Origin: Amoebophrya sp. A120
Lineage: Eukaryota; Protista; Dinoflagellata
Assembly (NCBI GenBank): GCA_905178155.1
Contig: CAJINV010000001.1
Span: 11,825,832 to 11,889,831 of the forward strand
Direction of reading: 5' to 3'
DNA: 64,000 nt
The translations under genes and the position numbers were made by a program. Positions 1 through 64,000 of this stretch are shown here, piece after piece; positions within the stretch are counted from its first letter, which is position 1; every line of letters starts with the position of its first letter. The notes below the pieces were generated by a model. The model was not told the origin of the DNA. It saw only the letters and a list, made by a program, of their open reading frames with translations, and did no database searches.

Positions 1-673
1 ATAGTCACGATACCCTGTCTCTGCCCTATCGTATTCCCGCATGTATTATGGATTGCAAAAATGCCTGGGTCTGGAAATTTGTAATGCTAAAAGTGAATGA
101 TAGACACACTGCAATACGCAGCTATGCATGAGAAATTTTTTGGCTGCCATGTCTTACGTATTCCGCATGGCAAGCTGCGTTTTTGCATGACAGGTAGGAG
201 GGCCTTTTCGTCCCCATGCAACACAGATTCTCGAGTCATGCCAGACAAGCATGACAAACTTGCATCCTTCCAGACCCAGACATTTTTACATTTCATATGT
301 ATTCGAGCACTTCCGCTTTTTTTGTGTTCTCGAACCCCAGTGCTCGCATGGCTACCTTCAGCTCGTGGTAGTCAATTTTTCCCGTCTTCTCGCTGTCGAA
401 AAGGTCGAAGGCTTCTCTTATCTCCTGCTTCTGCTCGTCGGAAATTTCAGGTCTGGCCACACGCCTGAACAGTAGAAATTTGTTGCATTGATTTGAGTTG
501 AAACTCTTGATCTTAATCAGATTTTCTGTGGATTTCGAGAAAGGAGAAGGACGCCAGCTTGCTGCATACTAATAATCATTCTACCCGGTGCCTCCGGGTC
601 GTGACCTGAACCTGCTCGTGGTTGCGTTTCCAAATCGCAAAAGCGATGTCCCGCCTTCCATCCGTCGCGACAT
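1..673 (-). CDS. CEN3: Centrin (centrin-3/Cdc31-like EF-hand protein), runs off the window start
   Basis: Not in the ORF track. Exon 673-585 (MSRRMEGG...), GT-AG intron 584-465, exon 464-298, TIR intron, then exon 41-1. Spliced peptide [61 protein letters not shown] matches the centrin-3 first EF-hand region. Confidence 0.92.
47..297. mobile_element. TIR non-canonical intron (introner/MITE), family A
   Basis: TIR TATGGATTGCAAAAATGCCTGGGTCTGGAA...TTCCAGACCCAGACATTTTTACATTTCATA. 5-bp TSD TGTAT at 42-46 and 298-302. Removal restores centrin ...EVLEY-M-REYD. Confidence 0.95.
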
Positions 674-1232
674 GATTTTTGGATTTCTAGTCTGGCACTA
701 CTTTCGACCGAACAAAACTGAATTAAACGAATTCAATCGCTGTTTTGAATAGCTTTCTTGAATAGACGAAAAATGCTCGAGCCTATCGCAAAGGCAACCT
801 AAGTCGAAAAAAAGGTCGGACTGATTTGCGCGCTCGAAACCGTGCGGAGAAAAAAAGGAAAACACACCTTTGCAGCTGCTGTCCAGCTTTCTCACACGCA
901 TTTGCAAATTTGTCATACTGTGTCACAGCTCTCCTCTGATGTTTACACGAAGCAACAAAATTGCAGTGGCAAAGTGTACAACGAACACATGGAAACTTGT
1001 TCTGCGGAGAGAACACGAAGATGGCAGAACTTCAGCTGCACAGTTCAGAAAACAAGAGGCCGCGCAGTGGCAGCGGACCCTGACCAGCTTGCACTGACAG
1101 ACTGCGACTCCGATTCTTACATAAAACACAACGAGCGCGCTTCTGCATACTTCAAATCTTCTTCTGGTAGTGGGATAAAGGTCAGCGATACACGGGACGC
1201 AGGCGAATGATGCTCCGCTGCCCTATCTTGTG

Positions 1233-2354
1233 TTACGCCCACGAGACCTCAAACCTTGAAAGGTCCTCCCCATCCTGCGTGAATTTCAGGCCCCTGGATT
1301 CGAAGAAGCGCCGCACCAGGGGCATCACATTCGCGTACTTTGCTTCCGGTCCGGGCAGACGGACAAACGCACTCCCTCCATCAATTTCCTTTTGCCGCTG
1401 CTCTGCCCAAGCCTCACTCTCCATCACTGCGTCCTCATATTCGGACGGCCACATCGTTTTGCCTTCGATGGAGTAGATTCTGTCTCCGAGCCCGATTTCA
1501 AAACGGGTGTTGCCTGGGAATCGGACCCTATCCGGGTCCCGGATCCAGAAAACCTGACCCGGGGCTGTCGTTGTCCCTGCTTCCACGTGAACAACCGAAT
1601 CGAATATGTTGGTTACCGCACTATGAAGCAGGTTTTCCACATCTTCCGCACGTTTTCTCATTGCGATCTCAGAAAATAACTGCGAGTTGAGCATGACTGC
1701 GTTGACCGGGTCCGGAACGAACTCTTTAATCTTAAGAAAAAGCTCGACCGGGAGATGTGCAGGCGAAACCCGGCCGCTTTGCCTCCGCACGACGCCCATC
1801 CACACACGCAGTTGCTCTTGCAACACCGATTTGCTCAAACTCTCGCTTGTTGTGACGATGCACTCGTCATTTGCTTTTGAAAACGCTGCCCTCACACGAG
1901 GTCCACCCTGCCAAAATTCGGCCGTTCTACCAGGCGTTTGCGAGGACGCCGCACCATCCTTCGACTTTTTATGGTCCGGATTGGCCAGCCACACGAGAGC
2001 GTCTTGGGATGCGGGTGGGTTAGAGCAAAACCAACCAGCTCCCGCAGCGATGCGGCAATTGCGATGCCAATCATAGATATTCCATAAACCTCTTCCTTCA
2101 TCCGCTGCGCTTTTGCATTCCTTTAGAAGGGCAGCAGTGGAGGCTGAATTCGCCTTGGTTGCTTTTTTGTAAGATTCTGTGTTGACACTCCGCTTTCGCT
2201 GCTGTTGCTCCATGAATCTCAAATAGCTGCTCTCCATCCAGCTGATATAGTCCTCTGAATGAATTGGACACGGTTCGCCTCCTGGCTGCATCGACATTTT
2301 GTACAACTTGCGAAGAGAGATTGGATTATTTGCCTCCAGTGCAAAAAGAAGCAC
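1233..2354 (-). CDS. Hypothetical protein (~370 aa; F-box-like 'HLPVELFLKIKEFV' segment); true start uncertain
   Basis: Long ORF with normal amino-acid composition, same strand as its neighbours. Confidence 0.6.
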   Translation of the reverse strand: MLLFALEANNPISLRKLYKMSMQPGGEPCPIHSEDYISWMESSYLRFMEQQQRKRSVNTESYKKATKANSASTAALLKECKSAADEGRGLWNIYDWHRNCRIAAGAGWFCSNPPASQDALVWLANPDHKKSKDGAASSQTPGRTAEFWQGGPRVRAAFSKANDECIVTTSESLSKSVLQEQLRVWMGVVRRQSGRVSPAHLPVELFLKIKEFVPDPVNAVMLNSQLFSEIAMRKRAEDVENLLHSAVTNIFDSVVHVEAGTTTAPGQVFWIRDPDRVRFPGNTRFEIGLGDRIYSIEGKTMWPSEYEDAVMESEAWAEQRQKEIDGGSAFVRLPGPEAKYANVMPLVRRFFESRGLKFTQDGEDLSRFEVSWA

Positions 2355-62182: not shown

Positions 62183-62586
62183 ATTACGAAGAGCTTTGCG
62201 CTGCAGAGTTCTTGTTCCCTACTGGATGCTAGTGCACCAGTTTTCGTCAGAGGCATGATGGTGTGTTCATCCGCTGGACATTTTATTTTTTGTCTGTATT
62301 TACGCGCGCCTTGATTCTTTGTTTTGTCTTGTACTGGTGGTGGGGAGGAAATGAATTCAAATAGAGATACATTACAGCAAACGAAATCGCGGGGAATTCT
62401 TTATCGTTTGGTCGTCCTGATGGATTTTTCAACAAGCTATAACTCGTCCTCTCTTTACTCATTTTTTGTTTTTGAACTTTTCACATCGGTTCTGTTTTCT
62501 GTTTTTGATGAGCGCATATGAGTATCCGCATGCTTCTGCTTTAGTCTGATAGCCCGGTAATGGTAAAGATAGCATTGCGGTGCCGG

Positions 62587-64000
62587 ATGAAACATCAAGC
62601 GTGTAGGTGGTCGGTGGTTCTTTGGAGCTGCCTGCTTTTGCGACCAGCGGCCGCGCTACCAGAGGTTGCCGTCTGTCTTCGCGGCGTCCCGGGCTCCCGT
62701 CGGGCCTTGAAGCATTGGCACAAGTATGTCTGGCCCTCTCTTGGAGGGGAAGAGAATGTGGATCTGTTTCTCGTATCGCCGATCCAGAAGCAAGTTCTGC
62801 AGCGGCACCACTGCCTGGAGTTTCCAGAAGAAAAAGCCATCGAGAAGAGGTTCTACCTGTCGCTCCACGACGGGGAAGACGAGGCGACCACAGGGGGCTT
62901 GGAGGTGAAGAAAGATGAACTTGAGTCAGATACTAGTACAAAAAAGCTAGAGCCGCACTGCGAAAACCGTGCTATCCCCGTGAAAGACGCTTTTCTGCGC
63001 AACGACGTCGATATGGAGGCGTTTCACGACGAGCACACCCCCGCCTGGCGGGCCTATGCTTTTCCGCTCATGTTCGAAGCGGATTCGAAGCTGCTCGGGG
63101 GGCTTCCCTTCCCCGACTACGACCAATTGGCGTTTCAGGAGAACTACCAGGTGCTCCGGCAACCGACCCGCTGGCGGGATTTGTCGTGGAAGCTGGAGAA
63201 GCATGAGCGCAGCCACCGAACCTACCTGCGCCGGTACATCAAGGCGGCGCCGCAATTTTTCGACCTGTGGAAGTGCGAAGAAATCATTTCCAACTCGGAA
63301 GTGTATGCGAGGAATCACAAGAAATACAGTCATGTGCTTATTACAATGAAAAATCCCCTCACCCCCGAACCTGGGCGCATTTGTATTGCAAACCTTTGCA
63401 AATGAAACATTCGCCCTCTTGCATCTATCAGCATCACAGATTTCGAGTCGTGAATCGAAAAAAATTGTATTGCGCAAGATCCCAGCAAGAGCGGCGCTTG
63501 TCATGCGAGCAATGCGATATACGCCTAGACTCTGCATCAGAAAGATTCATAGTCCTTTCATGCATGACAAAAAGTTTTCATTTGGAAACTTTGCATCACA
63601 AATTATTGCAACTTGGGGGGTGAGGGCATTTCTCATTGTAATAGTGCTAATCTCGCGGATGGACTTGTTCTTCTTCGCGCCCCACGCGAACATATCAAAT
63701 GTAAAAATGTCTGGGTCCTCTGGAAGAATGCAACTTGTGATGCTGCATTTAGATTCCAGAAAAATCTCTATTGCATGAGTACCAAAGGCAAGGCAATTTT
63801 TGCTACGCGGAGAGGGCATTTGTAATGCGGAATAGACATCAAGAAGCTCTCAAAAAATCTGTTGTGCTAGGGCATGCATCACAGACATCAGGGCTCATGC
63901 AAAACGTGCATGACAAGTGTCAGAATCTTCCAGACCCAGACACTTTTACATTTGATAGAACATCCTACCCGCGACGCGGGGCCTGACGTTCGCGAACTTG
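62587..64000 (+). CDS. Signal-peptide protein with AVCLxG...YxxVxxxRxD glycosyltransferase-like motifs, 3' truncated
   Basis: EVAVCLRG and KYSHVL|ISRMDLFFFAPHAN|ILPA, recovered after removing two TIR introns. Confidence 0.6.
63339..63643. mobile_element. TIR non-canonical intron (family F)
   Basis: TIR TATTACAATGA[A/G]AAAT[C/G]CCCTCACCCCC. TSD GTGCT at 63334-63338 and 63644-63648. Confidence 0.92.
63693..63957. mobile_element. TIR non-canonical intron, family A (close to the 30422 copy)
   Basis: Family-A TIR. TSD GAACA at 63688-63692 and 63958-63962. Removal gives PHAN-I-LPA. Confidence 0.95.

What the first reader, a model, noticed from the sequence alone, without database searches (positions are those of the whole stretch)
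47..63957. Eleven TA...TA TIR elements with 5-bp TSDs act as precise non-GT-AG introns; all 11 are inside coding exons
Seen: elements at 47, 6192, 10363, 14195, 15253, 15513, 15844, 30422, 55871, 63339 and 63693 (130-305 bp) fall into six different TIR types. They share one architecture: TSD5-TAT...ATA-TSD5, with one end TAC. Removing the element plus one TSD restores frame each time, including in centrin, ERGIC3 and pyruvate kinase. In the cases I tested (15844, 55871), sliding within the TSD does not give GT-AG. I found none in intergenic DNA or canonical introns. Known: IR/DR introner elements were reported in Amoebophrya (Farhat et al. 2021) with an unresolved removal mechanism. The strict TA + 5-bp rule across families points to one transposase class and one removal machinery.
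Basis: partly seen in the sequence, partly recalled or inferred. Interest (0 to 1): 0.8.

Follow-up and report, generated by a model that had tools for sequence, protein, structure and literature searches.

The report
Known Amoebophrya transposon introns, fixed cut
Eleven small hairpin-ended mobile elements sit inside genes of what is likely the marine parasite Amoebophrya A120, and the eight seen directly are missing from likely messenger-RNA contigs by exactly their length plus five bases without GT-AG ends; this intron class is already published, and its removal is likely done by a loosened spliceosome that cuts at a fixed offset from the element ends.

Summary
All 11 elements are present. 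Nine have an exact 5-bp TSD; 14195 has one mismatch, 15253 two. No slide gives GT/GC-AG (0 of 11). These match the Amoebophrya A120 introner elements of Farhat 2021 (TAT start, 5-bp repeats). Gozashti 2025 already lists one A120 family as 'Ginger, 5-bp TSD, TA/TA termini'. In another assembly (about 320 related elements) TSD bases are neutral, both orientations occur, and about 90% of sites look coding against about 38% of random sites. There is no G-U excess in the inverted repeats, so selection on an RNA hairpin is not shown. No transposase was found. The scan has reported this system and a -1/+4 register on many other windows of this genome.

The parts
47..297 (-). TAT..ATA element, TIR type 1, in centrin exon; TSD TGTAT at 42-46 and 298-302
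   Evidence: joint 40->297 skips 256 in X3, same contig depth as canonical joint 463->584; absent in DNA run X1; centrin
6192..6443 (-). Element, TIR type 1, TAC at its transcript 5' end, in FkbM methyltransferase gene; TSD CGGCT
   Evidence: indirect: X3 contig piece starts at 6444 with 239 earlier letters not listed
10363..10578 (-). Element, TIR type CACAACTCCCCC, in long unnamed ORF; TSD TTTCC
   Evidence: indirect: X3 contig piece ends at 10357 and the record continues at 11184-11779
14195..14324 (-). Decayed single-copy element in ERGIC3; transcript-oriented TSDs ACATC / ACAAC; register-informative
   Evidence: joint 14189->14325 skips 135, both=1; only k=0 (TA..AC) or k=1 (CT..AA) fit; DNA contig 10543-14391 runs through it
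15253..15444 (-). Decayed single-copy element in ERGIC3; transcript-oriented TSDs CACTG / CGCCG; register-informative
   Evidence: composite joint 14377+C->15445 equals removal of 197 nt, a 4-5-nt microexon and an 869-nt GT-AG intron; only k=0 (TA..CG) or k=1 (GT..CC) fit
15244..15247 (-). 4-nt microexon GAAG (5 nt under the -1/+4 register) between element 15253 and canonical intron 14375-15243
15513..15791 (-). Element, TIR type CGTACC (20 of 20), in ERGIC3; TSD CGTGT
   Evidence: joint 15506->15791 skips 284
15844..16109 (-). Element, TIR type 1, in ERGIC3; TSD GTCTG; 86% identical to 6192
   Evidence: joint 15838->16110 skips 271
30422..30683 (-). Element, TIR type 1 (20 of 20), in very long unnamed ORF; TSD TGTCA; not tested on RNA
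   Evidence: about 300 open codons each side; stops inside the element
55871..56132 (+). Element, TIR type 1, in pyruvate kinase C-domain exon; TSD ACATG
   Evidence: joint 55865->56133 skips 267 in 4 of 4 runs of one sample
63339..63643 (+). Element, TIR type CCCCTCAC, in unnamed ORF; TSD GTGCT
   Evidence: joint 63333->63644 skips 310 in 1 of 4 runs, depth 5.7
63693..63957 (+). Element, TIR type 1, same ORF; TSD GAACA; 88% identical to 30422 but opposite orientation relative to transcription
   Evidence: joint 63687->63958 skips 270 in 2 of 4 runs

Best explanation
These are non-autonomous TIR mini-transposons (introner elements of likely Amoebophrya A120) that are absent from likely messenger-RNA contigs by exactly element+5 nt, and they are likely removed by the ordinary spliceosome with loosened end recognition, cutting at a fixed offset from the element ends. 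Step 1 (inferred): a retroviral-integrase-like (Ginger-type) transposase acting in trans inserts them in either orientation with a 5-bp staggered cut, mostly into coding DNA. Step 2 (shown for 8 of 11): the transcript keeps one target copy, so the ancestral frame is restored. Step 3 (shown in 2 cases): the upstream TSD is kept and the downstream one removed, with the cut at 0/+5 or -1/+4. Step 4 (inferred): the register is -1/+4, so the intron begins N-T-A-T, which puts T at +2 and A at +3 like this genome's canonical GTA donors, while +1 and the 3' dinucleotide are free. Because both ends read TAT inward, either orientation works. Whether the TIR hairpin or the end sequence positions the 3' cut is open.
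For: Joints at 8 of 11 sites, in contigs that also skip GT-AG introns; the five joints have depth 0 in DNA run X1. No GT/GC-AG in any slide; nearby in-frame GT-AG alternatives exist for 10 of 11 but are not the listed joints. Register limited to k=0 or 1 by 14195 and 15253. Canonical donors: GTA in 6 of 6 RNA-supported and 4 of 5 read-off pyruvate kinase introns. Other assembly: 639 of 656 ends TAT among 328 elements, null 1-2; TSD position 5 G in 75 of 242 against 29% control (P 0.52), AG at 3-4 in 19 of 242 against 5.7% (P 0.16); orientations 25:18, 18:14, 9:8 in three families. 47 and 15844 are opposite orientations of one type in minus-strand genes and both are removed. Coding-like sites 283 of 314 against 146 of 291 random (P 3e-28). 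Internal motif YTGTSATG/YTGTATTG: 37 copies in 2,680 element bases against 10 in 61,320 other bases; present in 294 of 319 related elements across TIR types. Literature: near-complete spliceosome, U1 snRNA not detected (Farhat); Fritillaria precedent; Ginger2 TSD 4-5 bp, IS3EU/GingerRoot TA..TA ends.
Against: No direct evidence on the removal chemistry (no lariat or branch data). My own data cannot separate -1/+4 from 0/+5; a codon-likelihood test on 44 of 75 decayed elements was inconclusive and at TSD position 1 ran against the reading (upstream better in 2 of 10). RNA evidence is assembled contigs of one sample, RNA status guessed, rare isoforms dropped; raw 2026 RNA reads did not cover the genes. 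Some RNA-like contigs carry TIR ends joined to other flanks, so copies elsewhere are retained or are pre-mRNA/DNA (loose ends). No transposase ORF was found, and Farhat found none in A120. Exon and orientation statistics rest on a coding model trained on this window and applied to another assembly.
Confidence: 0.6

Rival explanations
1. A separate, non-spliceosomal route removes them: an endonuclease/ligase reads the TIR hairpin and releases full-length circles, as described for euglenid nonconventional introns.
For: Terminal dinucleotides are free; all 11 fold with the ends together or nearly so; U1 snRNA not detected in A120; euglenid precedent.
Against: No G-U excess over A-C in transcript orientation (137 against 170 over TIR positions 1-20, P 0.07 in the other direction); positions 4-10 pair only 1233 of 1694 times while TAT is nearly invariant; N-TA mirrors the canonical GTA donor. 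The TIR filter (at least 14 of 20) biases these counts.
Confidence: 0.2
2. The spliceosome removes them, but the hairpin alone brings the ends together and the cut floats inside the TSD, so no fixed register exists.
For: Nine of 11 junctions are ambiguous over 6-8 positions; Farhat describes splice sites as variable relative to the hairpin.
Against: Both informative junctions exclude k of 2 or more and agree with each other; earlier scan notes report the same offset elsewhere (unchecked beyond my two cases).
Confidence: 0.12
3. The joints come from DNA excision, empty alleles or processed paralogs rather than splicing.
For: RNA status of X3-X6 is a guess; the elements are transposon-shaped.
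Against: The same contigs skip GT-AG introns; DNA run X1 runs unbroken through 14195 and 15253 and shows none of the five joints; decayed TSDs keep only the upstream copy in transcript orientation.
Confidence: 0.04

Closest known systems
Introner elements / non-canonical introns of Amoebophrya sp. A120 (Farhat et al. 2021, PMC7789003)
   Same: IRs start TAT, then 7 variable bases, then at least 3 A; 3-5-nt direct repeats (5-bp example in Fig. S19 legend); about 240-nt length; non-GT-AG; RNA-supported; no internal transposase.
   Different: The sections read describe repeats and splice positions as variable; here the TSD is uniformly 5 bp and the cut is limited to 0/+5 or -1/+4. Exon bias, neutral TSD bases and both orientations are quantified here.
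A120 introner family 38 and other TIR families (Gozashti et al. 2025, PMC12130899)
   Same: [quoted passage not shown]
   Different: Family 38 is about 810 bp with Copia/Gypsy-like ORF remnants; the window's elements are 130-305 bp without ORFs. I did not match window elements to numbered families.
Ginger2/TDD and IS3EU/GingerRoot integrase-related DNA transposons (PMC10045372)
   Same: Ginger2 makes 4-5-bp TSDs; IS3EU/GingerRoot have TA..TA ends.
   Different: IS3EU/GingerRoot TSDs are 6 bp; no transposase could be tested here.
Fritillaria borealis non-canonical introns; euglenid nonconventional introns (PMC11282704; bioRxiv 10.1101/2025.08.15.670264)
   Same: TIR/TSD-bearing, non-GT-AG introns from MITE-like elements.
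   Different: Fritillaria has preferred end dinucleotides and a studied modified spliceosome; euglenid introns yield circles; neither is shown here.

Membership tests
Amoebophrya A120 introner elements | IR begins TAT + 7 variable nt + A-tract | tested here: met
   10 of 11 start TAT at both ends; A-rich 11-14 except type 10363 (CACA); related set A 0.84-0.93 at 11-14
Amoebophrya A120 introner elements | 3-5-nt direct repeat at the exon/intron boundary | tested here: met
   9 exact 5-bp, 2 decayed
Amoebophrya A120 introner elements | Removed from RNA with non-GT-AG ends | tested here: met
   8 of 11 direct joints in RNA-like contigs; 0 of 11 slide to GT/GC-AG
Amoebophrya A120 introner elements | Repeated in the genome | tested here: met
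   9 of 11 have 6-150 long matches in 138 loci of another assembly; 14195 and 15253 have none; very high summed depth over elements in X1
Amoebophrya A120 introner elements | Host is strain A120 | tested here: inconclusive
   Inferred from the TAT motif (A25 has TTA), GC near 51% and co-oriented genes; no named genome was held
Ginger / integrase-related DNA transposons | Autonomous copy with a retroviral-type DDE integrase | tested here: inconclusive
   No such ORF seen in 6 of 9 long TIR pairs inspected; record-wide search not possible
Ginger / integrase-related DNA transposons | 4-6-bp TSD and TG..CA or TA..TA ends | tested here: met
   5 bp and TAT..ATA; compared with PMC10045372 passages
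Spliceosomal (U2-type) introns | GT/GC-AG ends | tested here: not met
Spliceosomal (U2-type) introns | Lariat with branch point; snRNP dependence | not testable with these tools
   needs lariat sequencing or inhibition
Euglenid-type nonconventional introns | RNA hairpin under selection joining the ends | tested here: inconclusive
   Ends can pair but no G-U excess
Euglenid-type nonconventional introns | Released as full-length circles, no lariat | not testable with these tools
   contigs cannot show it

The most novel reading that the evidence does not exclude
Amoebophrya runs a second splicing code that needs no splice dinucleotide: it reads the transposon's own TAT..ATA ends and cuts 1 base before and 4 after, in either orientation. 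This makes an exon-targeting, integrase-type transposon harmless by design, and the machine doing it (a U1-less spliceosome or a non-lariat enzyme) is of a new kind.
Probability: 0.25. Interest if true: 0.85.

Novelty: already known. Interest (0 to 1): 0.35.

Why it matters
About two thirds of A120 introns are non-GT-AG and their removal is unexplained (Farhat). A fixed offset from the element ends, with free flanking bases and either orientation, gives a concrete code that lariat sequencing or a reporter can test. It would also explain why exon insertions are tolerated, and it would correct exon boundaries in gene models. The class, the TAT ends and the 5-bp repeat are published, so this window adds refinement rather than a new system.

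Tried and rejected
Own genome not held, so no genome-wide scan. Candidate 4355-4646 (TAC..GTA) rejected: it encloses a ProRS exon. The other 19 non-exact hits were mostly tandem-repeat or low-score pairings and were not followed. Autonomous copy: 9 TIR pairs over 500 bp in the other assembly; 6 inspected: L048 (972 bp) has no ORF of 90 aa, and the others look like chance pairings of separate copies around host genes; 3 not inspected; their ORFs were not run against Pfam. TIR motif in viral contigs: 0. Integrase search over whole records not possible. Rfam on the window: 0. Codon test of the register: 44 of 75 decayed elements used (31 dropped for exact TSD or weak strand call); upstream base better in 2 of 10, 10 of 12, 4 of 8, 4 of 5, 8 of 14 at TSD positions 1-5: inconclusive. 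TIR decay is not greater when TSD position 5 is G (P 0.80). G before TAC-ended elements: 5 of 6 plus 6192, but about 6 of 10 once the relaxed set is added: post hoc, weak. Roy et al. 2023 not held.
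Full report
Observation. All eleven elements are at the stated coordinates. Twenty Markov-shuffled windows gave 0 or 1 such hit. Elements 14195 and 15253 have decayed repeats and were not recovered by the scan. Six copies share one TIR type and five are singletons by type. 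Removing element+5 nt opens a frame at all 11 sites. Hosts include centrin, a FkbM methyltransferase, ERGIC3 and pyruvate kinase. In 0 of 11 does any equivalent slide give GT-AG or GC-AG.

RNA. Contigs of runs guessed to be RNA behave as spliced transcripts, since they also skip GT-AG introns (463->584, 56209->56337 and three more). One search (window 1-16800) listed 15 of 152 joints, among them 40->297 (256 nt), 14189->14325 (135), 15506->15791 (284), 15838->16110 (271) and a composite 14377+C->15445. The composite resolves into the 15253 element plus 5 nt, a 4-5-nt microexon and an 869-nt GT-AG intron. DNA run X1 shows none of these five joints and runs unbroken through 14195 and 15253. One search (55790-64000) listed 8 joints, among them 55865->56133 (267; 4 of 4 runs), 63333->63644 (310; 1 of 4) and 63687->63958 (270; 2 of 4). 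So 8 of 11 are direct. For 6192 and 10363 contig pieces stop at the expected bases. Limits: X3-X6 are one sample, contigs hide rare isoforms, X1 may be the window's own source, and the raw 2026 reads did not cover the genes. Loose ends show TIR ends joined to other flanks in RNA-like contigs, so some copies elsewhere are retained or unspliced.

Register. Where the two TSD copies differ, the transcript keeps the upstream copy: ACATC not ACAAC at 14195, CACTG not CGCCG at 15253. Only two offsets fit: intron = element + 5 downstream bases (0/+5), or one base earlier (-1/+4). Under -1/+4 the intron starts N-T-A-T, and canonical donors here are GTA in 6 of 6 RNA-supported and 4 of 5 read-off introns. 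I prefer -1/+4 on that match and because earlier scan notes report it (unreviewed); my own two cases do not decide it, and a codon test was inconclusive.

Related sequence. Elements there are 85-96% identical to nine of the window's. Without requiring TA, inverted-repeat pairs with a 5-base flanking repeat start with TA in 233 cases against at most 3 for other starts; shorter repeats are common by chance. Of 328 elements, 639 of 656 ends are TAT; three shuffles gave 1, 1 and 2. A coding model trained on the window (sensitivity 0.93, false positives 0.22 at the loose threshold) called 283 of 314 insertion sites coding against 146 of 291 random sites; at the stricter threshold 223 of 314 against 101 of 291. 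Corrected for those rates (my arithmetic), this is about 87-96% against 37-39%; the published A120 coding fraction is 40.6%. In 242 of 314 sites with a confident strand, TSD composition matches background, and three families occur in both orientations. G-U pairs are not enriched over A-C in the TIRs (137 against 170). A short internal motif is shared across TIR types (9 of 11 window elements, 294 of 319 related ones), absent from the two decayed copies. No autonomous copy was seen.

Mechanism. Shown: TIR elements with 5-bp TSDs, exact removal of element+5 nt, non-GT-AG ends, a narrow register, either orientation, neutral TSD bases, strong exon bias. Inferred: insertion in trans by an integrase-related transposase; removal by a loosened spliceosome that reads the TAT end as a donor and measures the 3' cut from ATA (0.6). 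Rivals: a non-spliceosomal hairpin route (0.2), a floating cut (0.12), DNA-level loss (0.04). Exon bias may reflect insertion preference for GC-rich genic DNA, as reported for introners in general.

Comparison with print. Farhat et al. 2021 (PMC7789003; I saw the abstract, sections 5, 10, 11, 12, 16, 32 and supplement figure legends, not the figures) describes A120 introner elements with TAT + 7 nt + AAA inverted repeats, 3-5-nt direct repeats, 29,850 copies, no A120 transposase and no U1. Gozashti et al. 2025 (PMC12130899; passages, and 40 of 58 A120 dataset rows) classes family 38 as Ginger with 5-bp TSD and TA/TA termini, though its main text says the element lacks typical Ginger ends. I also saw passages of PMC9860276 and PMC10045372, passages and section 6 of PMC11282704, and the abstract of bioRxiv 10.1101/2025.08.15.670264. 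Three Amoebophrya searches listed no paper whose title or abstract start states a fixed register; Roy et al. 2023 was not held, and Farhat's Figs S19-S25 or the 18 unread dataset rows may bear on it. The host name is inferred from these features, not from a named record.

Verdict. Real, precise and already known as a class; the scan has noted it on many other windows of this genome. The fixed offset is a useful, testable refinement. Interest 0.35.

Noticed in passing
window 14346-14393 and about 15044-15091 (minus-strand ERGIC3): The 869-nt GT-AG intron holds a 48-bp duplicate of its own acceptor and the start of the next exon, about 650 nt apart; the transcript uses the distal copy. Resembles the long-direct-repeat inserts of note e1-10627074.
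   Followed up: partly
window 15244-15247: A 4-5-nt microexon between an element-intron and a canonical intron, which suggests ordered or intron-defined removal.
   Followed up: partly
window 60221-60516: A 296-nt skip with GC..GT ends, no TIR and no repeat, in 4 of 4 runs beside an unskipped contig of similar depth and a C>T difference at 60551; likely a paralog or allele.
   Followed up: no
window 54871-55805: A 935-nt pyruvate kinase intron filled with a GCTTAAGT-type minisatellite.
   Followed up: no
window 41700-44500: GC-rich region with a 230-bp palindrome (42805-43034), a 33-bp perfect inverted repeat (43846-43959) and palindromic units repeated at about 72-bp spacing, at the switch from minus- to plus-strand genes.
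   Followed up: no
window 40547-41272: A non-TA inverted-repeat pair (16 of 20) with a 5-bp direct repeat; may be chance.
   Followed up: no
window about 59570-59620 and 60675-60725: A 50-bp motif repeated behind two neighbouring plus-strand genes.
   Followed up: no
L048:6001-6972: A 972-bp member of the main TIR type with perfect 20-base TIRs and exact TSD but no ORF of 90 aa.
   Followed up: partly
canonical introns, e.g. window 56213-56339: Canonical acceptors here are A/C-rich (…AAACAG) with no polypyrimidine tract.
   Followed up: no
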